A DNA stretch of 64,000 bases from a virus (IMGVR_UViG_2832442593_000001:88020-152019); one strand, 5' to 3'; positions 35,144-37,749 are shown, numbered from the stretch's first letter. Translations and numbers: made by a program. The notes: generated by a model not told the origin, from the sequence alone.

Positions 35144-35259
35144 CCCGGTGTAGCTCAATCGGATAGAGCGCGTAATATGTGAGCTGATAAGTTCGCTGAC
35201 AGCAAATTTCTTTTAGATTTGAAATCTCGAGGTTGTCGGTTCGAATCCGGCCTCCGGGC
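35144..35259 (+). ncRNA. tRNA-like RNA with acceptor, D arm and T arm intact but anticodon arm replaced by ~64-nt insert containing CGCTGACAGCAA motif
   Basis: Acceptor CCCGGTG/CTCCGGG, D GCTC-AATCGGATA-GAGC, T GTCGG-TTCGAAT-CCGGC. No complementary anticodon stem. Confidence 0.5.
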
Positions 35260-35380
35260 ACCTTCTTCTAAGTCACCGAGAAGTAAAAGAGAAAAAGGCG
35301 ACTGAGCCGTGGGTTGACAGCCTACGCAGTTCTGAATCATCAGTTCTTTCGTCTGACAGCTCGGAAAAGACGAGCAACAA

Positions 35381-35457
35381 CGAGGTGTGGCTCAGCTTGG
35401 TAGAGCGCTTGCTTTGGGAGCAAGATGCCGCAGGTTCAAATCCTGTCACCTCGACCA
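35381..35457 (+). tRNA. tRNA-Pro (anticodon TGG), CCA encoded
   Basis: Acceptor CGAGGTG/CACCTCG, D GCTC/GAGC, anticodon loop TTTGGGA, T-loop TTCAAAT. Confidence 0.85.
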
Positions 35458-35563
35458 ATCCTCACCGTGCAGAGGAAATTTTATGTCCGTGAGCAAACTC
35501 CACTCACACACACCGCTTGGCACGGCAAGTGAACCTCCCGCGACTCGTCACCGCGGGAGATCT

Positions 35564-35638
35564 GCAGGTATCTTATAACGGTTAATAGGTCGGATTTCCA
35601 ATCCGAAGATGTGGGTTCGACTCCCATTACCTGCTCCA
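35564..35638 (+). tRNA. tRNA-Gly (anticodon TCC), CCA encoded
   Basis: Acceptor GCAGGTA/TACCTGC, anticodon stem TCGGA/TCCGA, loop TTTCCAA. Confidence 0.85.
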
Positions 35639-35644
35639 TTATAT

Positions 35645-35720
35645 TGCGGGATAGCGCAGTTGGTAGCGCGTCTGTTTCGTAGGCAGAATGTCGCCGGTTC
35701 GAGCCCGGTTCCCGCAACCA
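35645..35720 (+). tRNA. tRNA-Thr (anticodon CGT), CCA encoded
   Basis: D GCGC/GCGC, anticodon stem TCTGT/GCAGA, loop TTCGTAG, T GCCGG-TTCGAGC-CCGGT. Confidence 0.75.
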
Positions 35721-35723
35721 TAT

Positions 35724-35809
35724 GCCGATGTGTCGGAATAGGTTCACGAGGGCGTCTCAAAAACGTCCGCTCAACGGAGCGTCGGGGTTCGAGTCCCCGC
35801 ATCGGCACC
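35724..35809 (+). tRNA. tRNA-Leu (anticodon CAA), type II, CCA encoded
   Basis: Acceptor GCCGATG/CATCGGC, anticodon loop CTCAAAA, variable arm CGCTC-AACG-GAGCG, discriminator A. Confidence 0.8.
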
Positions 35810-35812
35810 AAA

Positions 35813-35898
35813 TGCGATTGTGGCGGAATTGGCAGACGCAGCGGATTTAAGTTCCGCTGGGAGATTCCCGTGAGAGTTCGAGTCTCTCCAGTCGCACC
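35813..35898 (+). tRNA. tRNA-Leu (anticodon TAA), type II, CCA encoded
   Basis: Acceptor GCGATTG/CAGTCGC, anticodon stem GCGGA/TCCGC, loop TTTAAGT, long variable arm. Confidence 0.8.
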
Positions 35899-35905
35899 AT
35901 CAATA

Positions 35906-36035
35906 TACGGCGGTAGCAAAGCGGTAATGCATCATCCCTTAAAATGCGAACCGACAAGTTCGCTGACAGCAATCTTAACAGTAAAAAGATATGCCATGAT
36001 GATAATCGCTGGTTCGACTCCAGCCCGCCGTGCCA
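35906..36035 (+). ncRNA. tRNA-like gene with 61-nt loop, i.e. a ~54-nt insertion in the anticodon loop; insert carries a GCGAAC/GTTCGC hairpin and the CGCTGACAGCAA motif (possible Gly-GCC tRNA if spliced, or a Y-RNA-like tRNA mimic)
   Basis: Acceptor ACGGCGG/CCGCCGT, D GCA/TGC, anticodon stem TCATC...GATGA enclosing 61 nt, T GCTGG-TTCGACT-CCAGC, discriminator G, CCA. Confidence 0.5.
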
Positions 36036-36037
36036 CA

Positions 36038-36095
36038 GGGACACTCACAGCAAACTTTAATGCTTTGACTTGAAATCAAAATACCTTTGTGTCCC
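36038..36095 (+). ncRNA. Candidate Y-RNA-like hairpin 1 (GGGACAC...GTGTCCC stem, loop begins TCACAGCAAACTTT)
   Basis: 7-bp stem with a 44-nt loop. Motif shared with the tRNA-like inserts. Confidence 0.35.
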
Positions 36096-36103
36096 GTATC
36101 CCT

Positions 36104-36171
36104 CCAAAGGGCGCTCACAGCAACTTTCCAAGAACTTAACTGATAATTAAGAATTCTAAAGCGCCCTGTGG
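36104..36171 (+). ncRNA. Candidate Y-RNA-like hairpin 2 (CCA-AA-GGGCGCT...AGCGCCC-TG-TGG bulged stem, loop begins TCACAGCAACTTTCC, internal CTTAA/TTAAG hairpin)
   Basis: Immediately upstream of the rsr RBS. Confidence 0.35.
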
Positions 36172-36195
36172 AATCAAAACAAGGAGGAAAAGAAA

Positions 36196-37749
36196 ATGAA
36201 TTTTACAACCGCAATGGCTAACACGCTGAACGAAGATTACAACGTCAGCGTAACCGAGAACGGCGCTGTCGGTTACAGAACGACCGGCAAAGCACTGCTC
36301 GACCTGAATTTCTCCGTAGCCTCGCTCCGCAGCGCAAGCGAAGCTGAGATCGTGAGTAAGTTTGTCAAGGCATTCTTCGAGGACAAAATGGCCGCGATGA
36401 AGTGGCTGTTCTTCGCCCGAGATGTTCGCGGCGGACTTGGTGAGCGTCGCCTGTTCCGCACCGTAATGAAGTATCTGGCGGACAATCTGCCGGAGTACGT
36501 TCGCCCAGTAATCGAGTTGGTTGCAGAATATGGCCGCTACGATGACCTGCTGTGCTTGTTGGATACAGAACTGGATGTAAAAGTTTTGGATTACATCTAT
36601 TTTCAGTTCAATTATGACATCCATCGTTATGAAGAGGGTAATCCGATCTCACTGCTGGCAAAATGGCTTCCGTCTCCATGCGCTTCTTCTTACAATTCCC
36701 GTCGATATGCAAAGATTATTTGTAATCGACTGAACTTCACTCAGAAGTATTACCGCCAGACTCTTTCTAAACTGCGCGGTTATCTCGATGTAGTCGAAAA
36801 GAAGATGTCCGCCAAACAGTGGGACGAGATCAAGTATGAAGCAGTTCCGTCCCGCGCAAATCTCATCTATAATAAGGCGTTTCTGAGAAACGATGAGGAG
36901 CGCCGCCGTGCTTATCTGGAAAGCCTCGCTAAGGGTGAAACAAAGATTAACGCAGGCACGCTCTTCCCGCACGAGATTGTCCATAAGTACGGCAACTCTG
37001 GATGGAATGCAATCACCGAGTATAACGAAACGCTCGAGCAGCTTTGGAAGGCTCTGCCTGATACGGTAAACGGTAACGGGAACACCATTGTCGTAGCGGA
37101 CGGCAGCGGCAGTATGAAATGCAACGTAGATCCGCACAGCAGCGTAACTGCACTAGACGTAGCAAATGCACTTGCGATTTACTTCGCGGAGCATTCCTCC
37201 GGCCAGTTCAAGGACAAGTACATCACGTTTTCCACTCGTCCTCGGCTGGTTGATTTCTCCAAAGCAAAGAACCTGCGTGAGAAGCTGTTAATCGCTAAGC
37301 AGCATAACGAGATGGGAAATACCAACATTGAAGCTGTTTTTAACCTGATTTTGACCACAGCGGTCAACAATCGAATGAAGCAGGAAGATATGCCGCAGAA
37401 TATTCTCATCATCTCCGATATGGAGTTCGACTCCTGTGCAACTTGCGACAGTCTAACGGGTTACTGGAGCCGAAAGCGGCCGGATTCCCGTCTGTTTAAC
37501 GTGATTCGTCAGAAATATGAAGCAGCCGGTTATAAATTGCCGCGCCTTGTGTTCTGGAATGTCAACAGTCGCACCGGCACCATTCCGGTTAAGGAAAACG
37601 ATCTCGGTGTTGCTCTGGTCAGCGGCTTCAGTCAGAATGTAGCTTCTATGGTGATGAGCGGTAAGCTCGACCCGTATGAATGCCTGATGGAAACGCTCAA
37701 CAGCGAGCGTTACAAGCCAATCGAGGAAGCGTTGGAGTGCGTCGTATGA
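36196..37749 (+). CDS. rsr: Ro60/Rsr orthologue (TROVE domain + C-terminal vWA domain with MIDAS DGSGSM)
   Basis: FFARDVRGGLGERRLFRTVMKYL matches the TROVE signature. IVVADGSGSM...T...D matches vWA. AAGGAGGAAAAG RBS. Confidence 0.75.
   Translation: MNFTTAMANTLNEDYNVSVTENGAVGYRTTGKALLDLNFSVASLRSASEAEIVSKFVKAFFEDKMAAMKWLFFARDVRGGLGERRLFRTVMKYLADNLPEYVRPVIELVAEYGRYDDLLCLLDTELDVKVLDYIYFQFNYDIHRYEEGNPISLLAKWLPSPCASSYNSRRYAKIICNRLNFTQKYYRQTLSKLRGYLDVVEKKMSAKQWDEIKYEAVPSRANLIYNKAFLRNDEERRRAYLESLAKGETKINAGTLFPHEIVHKYGNSGWNAITEYNETLEQLWKALPDTVNGNGNTIVVADGSGSMKCNVDPHSSVTALDVANALAIYFAEHSSGQFKDKYITFSTRPRLVDFSKAKNLREKLLIAKQHNEMGNTNIEAVFNLILTTAVNNRMKQEDMPQNILIISDMEFDSCATCDSLTGYWSRKRPDSRLFNVIRQKYEAAGYKLPRLVFWNVNSRTGTIPVKENDLGVALVSGFSQNVASMVMSGKLDPYECLMETLNSERYKPIEEALECVV

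What the first reader, a model, noticed from the sequence alone, without database searches (positions are those of the whole stretch)
35144..37749. Ro60/Rsr (TROVE+vWA) gene preceded by tRNA-like RNAs whose anticodon region is replaced by a conserved insert, plus hairpins sharing the motif: candidate Y-RNA-like system
The rsr orthologue (36196-37749) is immediately preceded by a tRNA cluster bracketed by two aberrant tRNA-like genes. 35144-35259 has no anticodon stem and instead carries a 64-nt insert. 35906-36035 has an intact anticodon stem enclosing 61 nt. Both inserts share (G/C)A(T/C)AAGTTCGCTGACAGCAA. Two hairpins between the last tRNA-like gene and the rsr RBS (36038-36095, 36104-36171) begin their loops with the related TCACAGCAA(A)CTTT. 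Bacterial Rsr is known to bind tRNA-like Y RNAs (YrlA) encoded next to rsr, some in phages. Here the topology differs (free acceptor ends, anticodon loop replaced), so these may be a new class of Ro60 ligands, or tRNA genes with a novel ~54-nt intron family.
Basis: partly seen in the sequence, partly recalled or inferred. Interest (0 to 1): 0.85.

Follow-up and report, generated by a model that had tools for sequence, protein, structure and literature searches.

The report
Phage Ro-like protein with tRNA-mimic RNAs
A roughly 100-kb phage of gut Clostridia encodes a distant relative of the Ro60 RNA-binding protein next to five small RNAs that share one conserved helix-plus-ACAGCAA module joined to tRNA-like bodies or anticodon-arm mimics; the same, apparently undescribed, RNA family sits beside this protein family in thousands of phages, including Felix O1-like, Listeria P100-like and mycobacteriophages.

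Summary
ORF 36196-37749 is a DUF2828+DUF7788 protein (phrog_850). It is not a Pfam TROVE protein, but its predicted fold matches Ro60 along its full length.

Upstream, five RNAs on the same strand share one module, M: a 5-7 bp helix followed by NN-ACAGCAA.
- In hairpins H1 and H2, M closes the RNA and encloses an anticodon-like stem-loop.
- In three tRNA-like RNAs (U, A, B), M is a capped hairpin inserted 5' of the anticodon-like loop.
- Element A does have an anticodon arm; M splits its 5' strand.

ACAGCAA is strongly strand-biased next to homologous genes: 468 vs 10 upstream in viral loci, 230 vs 9 in genome loci. Covariance models gave 106 and 103 hits in the 80 genome loci, all on the gene strand, and the helix covaries. 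A model built only from distant loci hit just the A and B inserts in the window.

The hairpin type also occurs in Bacillus, Salmonella, Listeria and Mycobacterium phages. In phage Finnry, M replaces the Rsr-binding stem of a YrlA-type tRNA-like RNA.

Best reading: a Y-RNA-like ribonucleoprotein with a new binding module. Binding and function are untested.

The parts
33973..34872 (+). SPFH/Band-7 protein gene (299 aa), upstream neighbour of the RNA array
   Evidence: Pfam Band_7, E 4.9e-29. Homologues lie within 2.5 kb of the DUF2828 gene in 12 non-close loci. A band-7-like gene also precedes the Ro-like gene in mycobacteriophage Finnry.
35010..35122 (+). U element, a tRNA-like RNA. Acceptor GAGGAGC/GCUCCCC (6 of 7 pairs). 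No normal D arm. M module: P1 35036-35040 with 35050-35054, then GA, then ACAGCAA 35057-35063. Long anticodon-like arm 35075-35095 (7 bp, loop CUGCAAA). T arm 35098-35114.
   Evidence: Coordinates. The same architecture recurs in distant loci (L019, L022, L025, L011, L064, L068, L104). The R2 hit is only weak (14.8 bits, E 0.13), so this is the least certain member.
35144..35259 (+). A element, a complete tRNA-like cloverleaf with a 42-nt insert (35173-35214) in the 5' strand of the anticodon stem. The insert carries P1 hairpin 35179-35196, UG, and ACAGCAA 35199-35205. Anticodon-like loop UUUGAAA at 35218-35224. No encoded CCA.
   Evidence: Rfam tRNA 37.4 bits. R2 hit 35174-35211 at 34.5 bits, E 1.2e-7. 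In-silico removal of the insert gives an ARAGORN tRNA(tga). The split anticodon stem shows compensatory changes in homologous class A RNAs.
35381..35899 (+). Five canonical tRNA genes (Pro-UGG, Gly-UCC, Thr-CGU, Leu-CAA, Leu-UAA), all with encoded CCA, interspersed in the array
   Evidence: ARAGORN and Rfam.
35907..36035 (+). B element, a tRNA-like RNA with encoded CCA. The 5-bp anticodon stem (35932-36 with 35998-36002) encloses 61 nt: A-rich strand, P1 hairpin 35946-35963, UG, ACAGCAA 35966-35972, a small hairpin, then AUGCCAU.
   Evidence: Rfam tRNA 47.7 bits. R2 hit 35941-35978 at 34.6 bits, E 1.1e-7. Class B relatives end the loop with A-A-(G/U/A)CC-A-A.
36037..36096 (+). H1, a hairpin-type M RNA. 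P1 is GGGACAC (36038-44) with GUGUCCC (36089-95). UC-ACAGCAA (motif 36047-53) opens the loop. Inner anticodon-like stem-loop 36064-36080 has loop CUUGAAA.
   Evidence: R1 48.2 bits (it was in the seed via L001). Folding z-score -3.4. Family statistics.
36107..36168 (+). H2, a hairpin-type M RNA. P1 is AGGGCGC (36108-14) with GCGCCCU (36161-67). UC-ACAGCAA (motif 36117-23). Inner anticodon-like stem-loop 36135-36151 has loop CUGAUAA. It ends 27 nt before the start codon.
   Evidence: R1 48.9 bits (in the seed). Folding z-score -3.5. In 17 of 55 genome loci with a hit, a hairpin-type RNA ends 15-70 nt before the ORF.
36196..37749 (+). Ro60-like protein gene (517 aa): DUF2828 alpha-helical part plus DUF7788/vWA domain with a complete MIDAS motif

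Best explanation
The locus encodes a phage ribonucleoprotein of the Ro60/Y-RNA type, built from a different protein family and a different RNA family.

The protein is DUF2828/DUF7788, an alpha-solenoid plus vWA/MIDAS protein with a Ro60-like fold. I propose that it recognises a shared RNA module, M. M is a helix of semi-conserved sequence (5'-GYGYCUU / AAGRCRC-3') whose AAGRCRC strand runs directly into single-stranded NN-ACAGCAA.

M occurs in two circular permutations:
- As the terminal stem of a 55-70 nt hairpin RNA (H1, H2).
- As a capped hairpin inserted into a tRNA-like body, always 5' of the anticodon-like loop (U, A, B).

The variable part of each RNA mimics a tRNA or an anticodon arm. 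By analogy with the effector module of Y RNAs, it would tether the protein to, or act as bait for, factors that recognise tRNAs. Candidates are anticodon nucleases, tRNA repair and processing enzymes, or exonucleases.

The RNAs, the ordinary tRNAs and the protein gene lie on one strand with no clear promoters or terminators between them. They are probably made from one precursor.

Shown: the module, its structure and covariation, its strand-specific association with the gene family, and the Ro60-like fold. Inferred: protein-RNA binding, retention of the insert in mature RNAs, and the biological role.
For: Protein:
- Homologues are annotated 'Ro-like RNA binding protein' in mycobacteriophages.

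Module:
- ACAGCAA counts are 468 (+) vs 10 (-) upstream of homologues in 95 IMG/VR loci and 230 vs 9 in 80 genome loci, including 58 vs 3 at under 50% protein identity.
- The hairpin model R1 gave 106 hits at E<=0.01 in 55 of 80 genome loci, all on the gene strand; 68 were not seeds. P1 is 99.4% paired, and all 7 pairs show changes on both sides.
- The capped-hairpin model R2, built without close relatives, has P1 98.1% paired with 7 of 7 pairs changed on both sides. It gave 103 hits in the 80 genome loci, all on the + strand. In the window it hit only the A and B inserts.

tRNA mimicry:
- 41 of 113 hairpin RNAs have a hairpin of at least 4 bp with a 7-nt loop of the form YU-NNN-RA, against 2.8 +/- 1.7 in shuffles.
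- 33 of 103 tRNA-like RNAs have one (stem of at least 3 bp), against 2.6.
- Stem pairs that played no part in seed selection covary (AU 32, GC 25).

Breadth:
- R1 hits lie next to the homologue in Bacillus phage PJN02 (42, 41 and 38 bits), Salmonella phage Si3 (31.5), Listeria phage LP-124 (31.2, 26.9) and Mycobacterium phage Finnry (28.3, 25.4).

Link to Y RNA:
- In Finnry, P1 plus CC-ACAGCAA encloses a YrlA-type permuted tRNA-like domain. Rfam YrlA scores 39.5 bits over model positions 23-89 only, that is, everything except the canonical Rsr-binding stem.

Expression of a homologous system:
- In the P100-like Listeria phage CKA15, unannotated regions within 2 kb upstream of the Rsr-like gene, on the same strand, are among the most highly transcribed. 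The authors suggested they are Y RNAs (PMC12282133).

Context:
- Band-7 is a neighbour here and in Finnry. An RtcB-like ligase lies 1.3 kb downstream in LP-124. Phage LeBron carries phosphoesterase, polynucleotide kinase and RNA ligase genes.
Against: - There is no binding, expression or end-mapping data for this phage.
- Similarity of the protein to Ro60 is fold-level only. A sequence profile against PDB sequences gives E=0.61, and the model is of moderate confidence (pLDDT 70.8).
- The canonical Ro60-binding motif GNCGAAN0-1G is absent.
- In the reverse test, 22 of 45 hairpin-RNA pattern matches with at least 3 kb available downstream had no homologue inside the fetched locus. Adjacency is therefore frequent but not obligatory.
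- Seeds for R1 and R2 were chosen for pairing, so the percent-paired figures are partly circular. Many loci are related to each other, so the counts are not independent events.
- Only about a third of the RNAs show a canonical anticodon-like loop.
- The tRNA-like members could be processed so that M is removed.
Confidence: 0.62

Rival explanations
1. A and B (and U) are genes for functional tRNAs interrupted by a new family of short intervening sequences. The M-containing insert is cut out and the halves are religated, for example by an RtcB-type ligase, to give decoding tRNAs. The Ro-like protein would at most assist as a chaperone.
For: - Deleting 35173-35214 from A leaves a perfect 74-nt cloverleaf that ARAGORN accepts.
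- Homologous class A RNAs become canonical tRNA-Asn(GUU)-like sequences when the insert is removed.
- ARAGORN with its intron option of 103 tRNA-like members, and none without it.
- B has an encoded CCA.
- An RtcB-like 'tRNA-splicing ligase' lies near the homologue in Listeria phage LP-124.
Against: - The same module forms the terminal stem of hairpin RNAs that have no exons at all (H1, H2; 106 hits). It also forms the end stem of a YrlA-type RNA in Finnry.
- ACAGCAA and P1 are more conserved than the tRNA bodies, which is unusual for a passive intron.
- Rfam finds no group I intron or known ribozyme.
- ARAGORN's intron positions (31-40), lengths (11-59 nt) and anticodon calls are inconsistent, so they look like forced parses.
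- The 'anticodon' of A differs between near-identical phages (UGA vs UGU) on an unchanged Asn-type body with a short variable loop.
- In most class B relatives the 7 nt next to the 3' strand of the anticodon stem have A rather than U at position 33.
- No splicing endonuclease is known in bacteria. This last point is from general knowledge.
Confidence: 0.1
2. M is a cis-acting signal of tRNA/ncRNA operons, such as a processing, stability or transcription-control element read by a host or phage nuclease or polymerase. It would have no specific tie to the DUF2828 protein, which merely tends to sit in tRNA regions.
For: - The RNAs are always embedded in tRNA arrays.
- About half of the pattern matches in IMG/VR had no DUF2828 gene within the fetched flank.
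- No internal promoters or terminators stand out, so precursor processing must occur.
Against: - The association with DUF2828 survives complete turnover of the neighbouring genes and spans hosts from Actinobacteria to Proteobacteria. The RNAs lie either just upstream or just downstream of the gene, always on its strand.
- The window's other tRNA cluster (24016-24663) has no M element.
- M replaces the protein-binding stem in a Y-RNA architecture.
- A DNA-level promoter would not need compensatory changes 40-60 nt away.
Confidence: 0.15
3. H2, and the last hairpin RNA in other loci, is mainly a 5'-leader element through which the protein autoregulates its own mRNA. The other copies would be titrating decoys. 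This reading is not exclusive of the main explanation.
For: H2 ends 27 nt before the ATG, leaving only the RBS. In 17 of 55 genome loci with a hit, a hairpin RNA ends 15-70 nt upstream of the ORF.
Against: - Most copies lie 100-1900 nt upstream or downstream of the gene.
- In Finnry and Si3 the RNAs follow the gene.
- Autoregulation does not explain the tRNA-like and anticodon-like parts.
Confidence: 0.08

Closest known systems
Bacterial Rsr (Ro60) with YrlA/Y RNAs (Chen et al. 2014, PMC4201824; Rfam RF02553)
   Same: - A ring-plus-vWA RNA-binding protein is encoded within a few kb, and on the same strand, of small RNAs.
- Each RNA combines a protein-binding stem with a tRNA-mimicking module.
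- Several RNAs occur per locus.
- The system occurs in phages.
- There are links to RtcB-type RNA repair.
   Different: - The protein is a separate sequence family (DUF2828/DUF7788). It gets no Pfam TROVE hit and only E 0.61 against TROVE sequences in the PDB.
- The RNA module is helix plus NN-ACAGCAA, not the GNCGAAN0-1G bulged stem.
- No window RNA reaches the YrlA gathering score. The best is 24.5 bits against 69, and it lies at a tRNA-tRNA junction.
- In U, A and B the ends are in a free acceptor stem and the module is internal, which is the inverse of YrlA.
- Many RNAs keep a full anticodon-like loop, which YrlA lacks.
Thermus phage phiLo Ro60 with Yrl1/Yrl2 (PMC12135203; PDB 9KOP, 9L5Y)
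   Different: phiLo Ro60 is a TROVE-domain protein, and its RNAs were picked by the CGAA motif and Y-RNA shape. They have no ACAGCAA module and no tRNA body.
[quoted passage not shown]
   Same: It is a predicted tRNA-like RNA encoded next to a Band-7/SPFH protein in RNA-repair neighbourhoods, occasionally next to Rsr. Here the U element starts 138 nt after the Band-7 stop codon, and Finnry has band-7, then a tRNA, then the Ro-like gene.
   Different: It is described as strongly resembling an authentic tRNA, with no mention of an inserted module. It has never been validated. The original paper was not available to me, so identity with any element here could not be tested.
Highly transcribed unannotated regions upstream of the Rsr-like gene CKA15_055 in Listeria phage CKA15 (PMC12282133)
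   Same: This is probably the same system in a P100-like phage: abundant RNAs within 2 kb upstream, same strand, near tRNA genes. The authors proposed Y RNAs. In the related phage LP-124, R1 hits lie 80-340 nt upstream of the homologue.
   Different: That paper defines no motif, structure or family. That its abundant transcripts coincide with the M RNAs is my inference. It also reports the protein in purified virions, which nothing here addresses.
Intron-containing tRNA genes (archaeal bulge-helix-bulge introns; bacterial and phage group I introns in anticodon loops)
   Same: There is an insert inside the anticodon arm of an otherwise complete tRNA gene, and the exons can form a cloverleaf.
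   Different: - The insert is 42-54 nt with an invariant heptamer and a conserved helix.
- It sits in the stem (A), at the 5' edge of the loop (B), or before the whole arm (U).
- The same module exists without any exons.
- Rfam detects no group I core.

Membership tests
Ro60/Rsr (TROVE + vWA) | TROVE domain detectable by sequence (Pfam PF05731, or similarity to solved Ro60 sequences) | tested here: not met
   Pfam gives DUF2828 + DUF7788 + weak VWA_2 only. NCBIfam gives none. phmmer and a profile against PDB sequences give TROVE at best E 0.61, over the MIDAS region only.
Ro60/Rsr (TROVE + vWA) | Alpha-helical repeat ring followed by a vWA domain, superposable on solved Ro60 | tested here: met
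Ro60/Rsr (TROVE + vWA) | MIDAS motif (DxSxS...T...D) in the vWA domain | tested here: met
   D302, S304, S306, T376 and D408 are invariant in 19- and 20-sequence alignments.
Ro60/Rsr (TROVE + vWA) | Binds Y RNAs and misfolded RNAs | not testable with these tools
   Needs biochemistry.
Y RNA / YrlA (Rfam RF02553) | Match to the family covariance model at its gathering score (69 bits) | tested here: not met
   The window's best scores are 24.5 and 17.7 bits, both spanning junctions of adjacent tRNA-like genes. Finnry scores 39.5 bits over the tRNA-like core only.
Y RNA / YrlA (Rfam RF02553) | Encoded within about 4 kb of, and on the same strand as, the Ro60 gene | tested here: met
   All five window RNAs lie 27-1190 nt upstream on the + strand. 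All 106 R1 hits and all 103 R2 hits in the genome loci are on the gene strand.
Y RNA / YrlA (Rfam RF02553) | Terminal stem carrying the conserved Ro60-binding motif GNCGAAN0-1G | tested here: not met
   The motif definition comes from Chen et al. 2014. The conserved element here is AAGRCRC-NN-ACAGCAA paired with GYGYCUU.
Y RNA / YrlA (Rfam RF02553) | tRNA-like domain with a closed acceptor stem, no anticodon loop, and the RNA ends in the protein-binding stem | tested here: not met
   U, A and B have open acceptor stems and an internal module. H1 and H2 have ends in the module stem but carry only an anticodon-arm mimic. The YrlA topology with the M stem is met in Finnry at L296:4540-4670.
tRNA (Rfam RF00005) | Covariance-model score above gathering (29 bits): acceptor, D and T arms | tested here: met
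   A scores 37.4 bits and B 47.7 bits. U does not reach it.
tRNA (Rfam RF00005) | Uninterrupted 5-bp anticodon stem with a 7-nt loop | tested here: not met
   A has its stem split by 42 nt. B has a 61-nt loop. ARAGORN in default mode of 103 family members.
tRNA (Rfam RF00005) | Aminoacylation and decoding | not testable with these tools
   Needs experiments.
Intron-containing tRNA | Recognisable splicing signal (group I core, or bulge-helix-bulge at the exon-intron borders) | tested here: inconclusive
   There is no group I or ribozyme family in Rfam at E<=10 over 34700-39300. I made no dedicated bulge-helix-bulge search. ARAGORN's intron parses are inconsistent.
b7a-tRNA (Burroughs and Aravind 2016) | tRNA-like gene adjacent to a Band-7/SPFH gene | tested here: met
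   The Band-7 gene ends at 34872 and U starts at 35010.
b7a-tRNA (Burroughs and Aravind 2016) | Sequence and structure match to the published b7a-tRNA | not testable with these tools
   The paper is not held, and there is no Rfam model.

The most novel reading that the evidence does not exclude
DUF2828 proteins and M-module RNAs form a widespread phage counter-defence particle. The protein would hold a panel of RNAs that display authentic-looking anticodon loops, or whole tRNA bodies, right next to its binding site. These would act as baits that capture or inhibit host tRNA-targeting nucleases, or that recruit end-healing and sealing enzymes to cleaved tRNAs. The displayed anticodon triplets would diversify rapidly as the arms race proceeds: UGA vs UGU in near-identical phages, and GUU, UUU, GCA, UGA and GAU most common overall.
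Probability: 0.2. Interest if true: 0.92.

Novelty: new variant of a known kind. Interest (0 to 1): 0.8.

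Why it matters
Ro60 and its Y RNAs are a long-standing puzzle. The partner of the tRNA-like domain of bacterial YrlA is still unknown.

- This work gives a second, very large protein family its candidate RNA partners. 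The family has at least 8000 clusters in the protein search (the scoring cap) and occurs in 711 cultured phage genomes.
- The RNAs have a simple, testable recognition module. They come in a natural series of variants: a terminal stem, an insert in a tRNA, or a fusion to a YrlA-type domain.
- The family is present in tractable model phages, namely Felix O1-like phages, P100/A511-like Listeria phages, cluster L mycobacteriophages and Bacillus phages. Pull-downs, knock-outs and challenge with anticodon nucleases are therefore immediately feasible.
- It explains 'tRNA-like' calls that ARAGORN's default mode misses, here and possibly in other phage genomes. It probably also explains the very abundant unannotated transcripts seen in Listeria phage CKA15.
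- DUF2828 is also listed by Pfam for eukaryotes. If it is an RNA-binding ring, that would give a first functional lead there. The eukaryotic distribution is from my own knowledge and was not tested here.

Tried and rejected
1. A second helix (P2) pairing the U-rich stretch after ACAGCAA with the A-rich stretch before the P1 3' strand. No fixed register pairs above the A/U-rich background of 0.4-0.5, so I do not claim it.
2. The weak Rfam YrlA hits in the window (35587-35703 and 35068-35201). These are artefacts of a tRNA 3' half followed by the next tRNA's 5' half.
3. Promoter and terminator scans of 33800-39300. Nothing rose above shuffle expectation, so transcription units stay undefined.
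4. MFE folding of single elements. The AU-rich inner hairpins are often missed (for example in H1), and the z-scores for A and for 35262-35380 are weak. I relied on comparative evidence instead.
5. A search for an RNA ligase or RtcB in the window. I found only an AAA_33/KTI12-like kinase (27375-28016), a metallophosphoesterase (45751-46404) and an HD protein (47912-48529), and no ligase, in the 64 kb.
6. A search for a shared neighbour of 'orphan' hairpin RNAs that have no DUF2828 gene nearby. No common protein emerged.
7. ARAGORN's intron mode as evidence for splicing. The parses are inconsistent.
8. Retrieving Burroughs and Aravind 2016 and the 2020 Annual Review. Neither is held.
9. A nucleotide search of cultured phages with the whole locus. 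It found only generic tRNA similarity.
10. R2 (the capped-hairpin module) on four cultured phages. There were no genuine hits, so the tRNA-insert form seems restricted to the Clostridia-phage clade.

Full report
**1. What is at the coordinates**

The window is part of a roughly 102-kb phage contig (IMGVR_UViG_3300045988_143095). It carries replication and nucleotide-metabolism genes: DnaB, primase, a large DNA polymerase, NrdD, ThyX and dUTPase.

ORF 36196-37749 (517 aa, RBS at 36181-36187) is real. Upstream, on the same strand, lie five ordinary tRNA genes.

The Rfam tRNA model also scores two elements that ARAGORN's default mode rejects. These are 35144-35259 at 37.4 bits and 35907-36032 at 47.7 bits, against a gathering score of 29.

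**2. The protein**

Pfam assigns DUF2828 (3.2e-36) and DUF7788 (2.5e-45) with a weak VWA_2 hit, not TROVE. PHROGs gives phrog_850 'RNA-binding protein' at 3.5e-139. NCBIfam gives nothing.

Sequence searches against solved structures find no Ro60. phmmer found nothing, and a profile reached only E 0.61.

An AlphaFold2 model (pLDDT 70.8, pTM 0.60) nevertheless matches Ro60 structures best.
- The Foldseek top six are all Ro60/TROVE: Thermus phage phiLo Ro60, Xenopus Ro, D. radiodurans Rsr and human Ro60, at E 2.8e-8 to 2.3e-4.
- The MIDAS residues are invariant.

So the gene is Ro60-like in architecture but belongs to a separate sequence family.

The family is huge. At least 8000 clusters were scored, which is the cap. 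It is present in 711 cultured phage genomes at 31-42% identity. These include Felixounavirus, cluster L mycobacteriophages (annotated 'Ro-like RNA binding protein'), and Listeria, Staphylococcus, Campylobacter, Vibrio, Aeromonas, Bacillus and Enterococcus phages. Genome-contig relatives are mostly Clostridia MAGs.

**3. The shared RNA module**

All five unusual RNAs in the window contain ACAGCAA, at 35057, 35199, 35966, 36047 and 36117. All copies are on the + strand. Fifteen copies occur in the rest of the window on both strands.

In every case the heptamer is preceded by two variable bases and then by the 3' end of a helix strand (AAGRCRC-like). I call the helix P1 and the whole unit M. M occurs in two permutations.

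In H1 (36037-36096) and H2 (36107-36168), P1 is the terminal stem:
- 5'-GGGACAC-UC-ACAGCAA-(35 nt)-GUGUCCC-3'
- 5'-AGGGCGC-UC-ACAGCAA-(37 nt)-GCGCCCU-3'

In U, A and B the complementary strand comes first, and P1 is capped by a small loop:
- A: GUGAGCU-GAUA-AGUUCGC-UG-ACAGCAA
- B: GCGAAC-CGACAA-GUUCGC-UG-ACAGCAA
- U: GUGCG-(9 nt)-CGCAC-GA-ACAGCAA

Across the family the capped form reads AAAAU-GUGUCUUG-loop-AAGACAC-NN-ACAGCAA. The terminal form reads AAGACAC-NN-ACAGCAA...AAAU-GUGUCUUG. This is the same helix and the same junction, circularly permuted.

**4. Comparative support**

I fetched 95 viral loci and 80 genome loci by protein similarity alone.

| Data set | ACAGCAA upstream, gene strand | ACAGCAA upstream, opposite strand |
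|---|---|---|
| 95 viral loci (237 kb upstream) | 468 | 10 |
| 80 genome loci | 230 | 9 |
| Genome loci under 50% protein identity | 58 | 3 |

Hairpin model R1 was built from 113 non-redundant hairpin-type RNAs (A3).
- It finds 106 matches at E<=0.01 in 55 of the 80 genome loci. All are on the gene strand, and 68 are not seeds.
- P1 is 99.4% paired, and all seven pairs show changes on both sides. One pair, for example, reads GC 52, AU 45, UA 4, CG 2. Controls with the 3' partner slid by 1-3 columns give 31-54% paired.

Capped-hairpin model R2 (A5) used 44 sequences and excluded every close relative of the window.
- P1 is 98.1% paired, with 7 of 7 pairs changed on both sides.
- It finds 103 matches in the 80 genome loci, all on the + strand.
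- With filters off on the whole window, its only significant hits are the B insert (35941-35978; 34.6 bits, E 1.1e-7) and the A insert (35174-35211; 34.5 bits, E 1.2e-7). U scores only 14.8 bits (E 0.13).

Caveats: the seeds were chosen for pairing, many loci are related to each other, and E-values from the shortened calibration are rough.

**5. tRNA and anticodon-arm mimicry**

Element A is not missing its anticodon stem. After the D arm come G26 and C27-G28 (35171-72). Then follow the 42-nt insert, AGA, the loop UUUGAAA, UCU, and C42-G43, and then a 5-nt variable loop and the T arm. Removing 35173-35214 gives a 74-nt cloverleaf that ARAGORN calls tRNA(tga).

Homologous class A RNAs in distant phages have the same split stem with compensatory changes.
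- Inner pairs: UGC/GCA, GGU/ACC, GGG/CCC, GGA/UCC, GCU/AGC, GUC/GAC.
- Outer pairs: CG/CG, CU/AG, UC/GA.
- The loop is mostly CUGUUAA, as in tRNA-Asn.
- That list was filtered for pairing, so it shows compensation, not frequency.

U carries a 7-bp arm with loop CUGCAAA. H1 has UUUGA-CUUGAAA-UCAAA and H2 has CUUAA-CUGAUAA-UUAAG.

Statistically, the anticodon-like hairpin is well above chance:

| RNA type | With a 7-nt YU-NNN-RA loop hairpin | Shuffled expectation |
|---|---|---|
| Hairpin RNAs (stem >=4 bp) | 41 of 113 | 2.8 +/- 1.7 (max 8 in 200) |
| tRNA-like RNAs (stem >=3 bp) | 33 of 103 | 2.6 +/- 1.6 |

Two stem pairs that played no part in seed selection covary (AU 32, GC 25, GU 6).

The triplets in the loops vary. 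UUU, GUU, UGA, GCA, GCU and GAU are the commonest. They differ even between near-identical phages: UGA here, UGU in L003, L004, L006 and L009.

In all classes M lies 5' of the anticodon-like loop.
- In U it lies before the whole arm.
- In A it lies within the 5' stem strand.
- In B it lies at the 5' edge of the loop. B's loop ends in AUGCCAU. Class B relatives end in A-A-(G/U/A)CC-A-A.

**6. Cultured phages and the link to Y RNA**

R1 finds hairpin-type M RNAs next to the homologue in all four cultured phages I examined:
- Bacillus phage PJN02: 42.1, 40.7 and 38.2 bits, in a 1.6-kb unannotated tRNA-rich gap.
- Salmonella phage Si3, which is Felix O1-like: 31.5 and 26.4 bits.
- Listeria phage LP-124: 31.2 and 26.9 bits, 80-340 nt upstream of the gene.
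- Mycobacterium phage Finnry: 28.3 and 25.4 bits, just downstream of the gene.

R2 finds nothing genuine in these four. The tRNA-insert form therefore looks specific to the Clostridia-phage clade.

In Finnry the middle RNA (L296:4540-4670) reads as follows: GGACCCC, CC-ACAGCAA, a spacer, a T arm, a closed acceptor-like hairpin, a D arm, a spacer, GGGGUCC. Rfam's YrlA model matches its core at 39.5 bits over model positions 23-89. It does not match the ends, where canonical YrlA carries the Rsr-binding stem. That stem's motif is GNCGAAN0-1G (Chen et al. 2014).

So in a bona fide YrlA-type architecture, M sits exactly where the Ro60-binding stem should be. This is the strongest single argument that M is the protein-binding module of this family.

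**7. Outside evidence**

In the P100-like Listeria phage CKA15, the homologue CKA15_055 had Rsr as its best HHpred match. It was detected in purified virions with 20 peptides and 57% coverage.

Unannotated regions within 2 kb upstream, on the same strand, are among the most highly transcribed in that phage. The authors speculated that they are Y RNAs (PMC12282133). I infer, but did not show, that these transcripts include the M RNAs.

LeBron gp53 (Ro-like) is moderately toxic when overexpressed. That phage also has a Band-7-like protein, a phosphoesterase, a polynucleotide kinase and an RNA ligase (PMC13148394).

Here a Band-7 gene (33973-34872) precedes the array. Finnry has the same order, and LP-124 has an RtcB-like ligase 1.3 kb downstream. 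Band-7 plus a predicted tRNA-like RNA ('b7a-tRNA') was proposed by Burroughs and Aravind 2016, as cited in bioRxiv 10.1101/312249. I could not read the original.

**8. Is it known?**

Rfam 15 has no family matching any M RNA. The only hits are tRNA.

Full-text searches found no description of the motif, of RNA partners for DUF2828 proteins, or of tRNA genes with this insert. The terms covered DUF2828, b7a-tRNA, Ro-like phage proteins, and combinations of Ro60, YrlA, phage and tRNA mimic.

The concept of a Ro-type protein with neighbouring tRNA-mimicking RNAs, also in phages, is established. The protein family's RNA partners, the module, its permutations and the anticodon-arm display appear new. 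Hence my rating of 'new variant of a known kind'.

**9. Weak points**

- There are no binding or expression data for this phage.
- The reverse test is only half positive. The pattern was AAGACRC-NN-ACAGCAA-N25-50-GYGTCTTG. Of 45 matches in IMG/VR with at least 3 kb downstream, 23 had a homologue in the fetched locus, always on the same strand. The other 22 had none, and they share no alternative neighbour. The homologue may lie elsewhere in those genomes, but I could not check.
- Only about a third of the RNAs have a canonical anticodon-like loop.
- The intron reading remains possible for A, B and U.
- The biological role (decoy, tether, repair scaffold or quality control) is inference from context.

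Noticed in passing
window 37991-38059: A tRNA-like gene (Rfam tRNA 42.9 bits) has an 'anticodon arm' that is a 5-bp stem (one mismatch) closed by only 4 nt (GUGGC-AAGC-GCCUC). It has no anticodon loop and no ACAGCAA. It is conserved in L003 and L009 and partly in L005 and L008. ARAGORN misses it.
   Followed up: partly
window 38166-38252: A probable tRNA-Ser(UGA) with a long variable arm and an imperfect T stem (Rfam 42.5 bits). ARAGORN's default mode missed it.
   Followed up: no
window 34968-35002 and 35359-35375; also L060 near 2070-2100: A second recurring small element: UGACA followed by a 4-5 bp hairpin with loop GAAAGA or GAAAAGA. Examples are GCGG-GAAAGA-CCGC, GCCGG-GAAAGA-CCGGC and GCUCG-GAAAAGA-CGAGC, with compensatory stem changes. 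Its function is unknown.
   Followed up: partly
window 35458-35563: The conserved spacer between tRNA-Pro and tRNA-Gly folds better than shuffles (z -2.9). It includes the hairpin CCCGCG-ACUCGUCAC-CGCGGG. It has no M motif and is 93-98% identical in related phages.
   Followed up: no
window 24570-24663: A 94-nt tRNA with anticodon CUA, which ARAGORN labels 'Pyl'. It is an amber-suppressor-type tRNA in a second tRNA cluster (24016-24663). It may indicate TAG read-through or recoding in this phage.
   Followed up: no
window 59255-62554: The anaerobic ribonucleotide reductase gene nrdD appears split. The N-terminal 580 aa are at 59255-60997, an HNH_3 endonuclease ORF is at 61117-61809, and the NRDD C-terminus with the glycyl-radical domain is at 62048-62554. 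This looks like an intron or homing-endonuclease insertion. No Rfam group I hit appears at gathering score.
   Followed up: no
window 27375-28016, 45751-46404, 47912-48529: There is an AAA_33/KTI12-like P-loop kinase (PHROG polynucleotide kinase), a calcineurin-like metallophosphoesterase and an HD-domain protein. These are possible RNA end-healing enzymes. I found no RNA ligase in the 64 kb.
   Followed up: partly
L298 (Listeria phage LP-124) 1456-2007: A ROOL-like large RNA scores 87.4 bits, just under the gathering score of 99.1. It lies between tRNA genes about 1 kb upstream of the DUF2828 gene. It may be one of the 'highly transcribed regions' reported for phage CKA15.
   Followed up: no
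L296 (Mycobacterium phage Finnry) 4538-4753: The annotated 'hypothetical protein' gp55 overlaps two of the three M-module RNAs found here (L296:4540-4670 entirely, L296:4682-4738 entirely). It is probably not a protein-coding gene.
   Followed up: partly
L013 1311-1540 and 6894-6968: HEARO (117.9 bits) and RAGATH-18 (67.9 bits) RNAs flank the DUF2828 homologue in one distant viral contig. They are IS200/IS605-type elements and are unrelated to the finding.
   Followed up: no
window 36084-36129: The 3' strand of H1's stem and the 5' strand of H2's stem are mutually complementary (R2 18.4 bits, E 0.01). Adjacent hairpin RNAs could therefore mispair in a precursor transcript. It may simply be a by-product of the shared consensus.
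   Followed up: no
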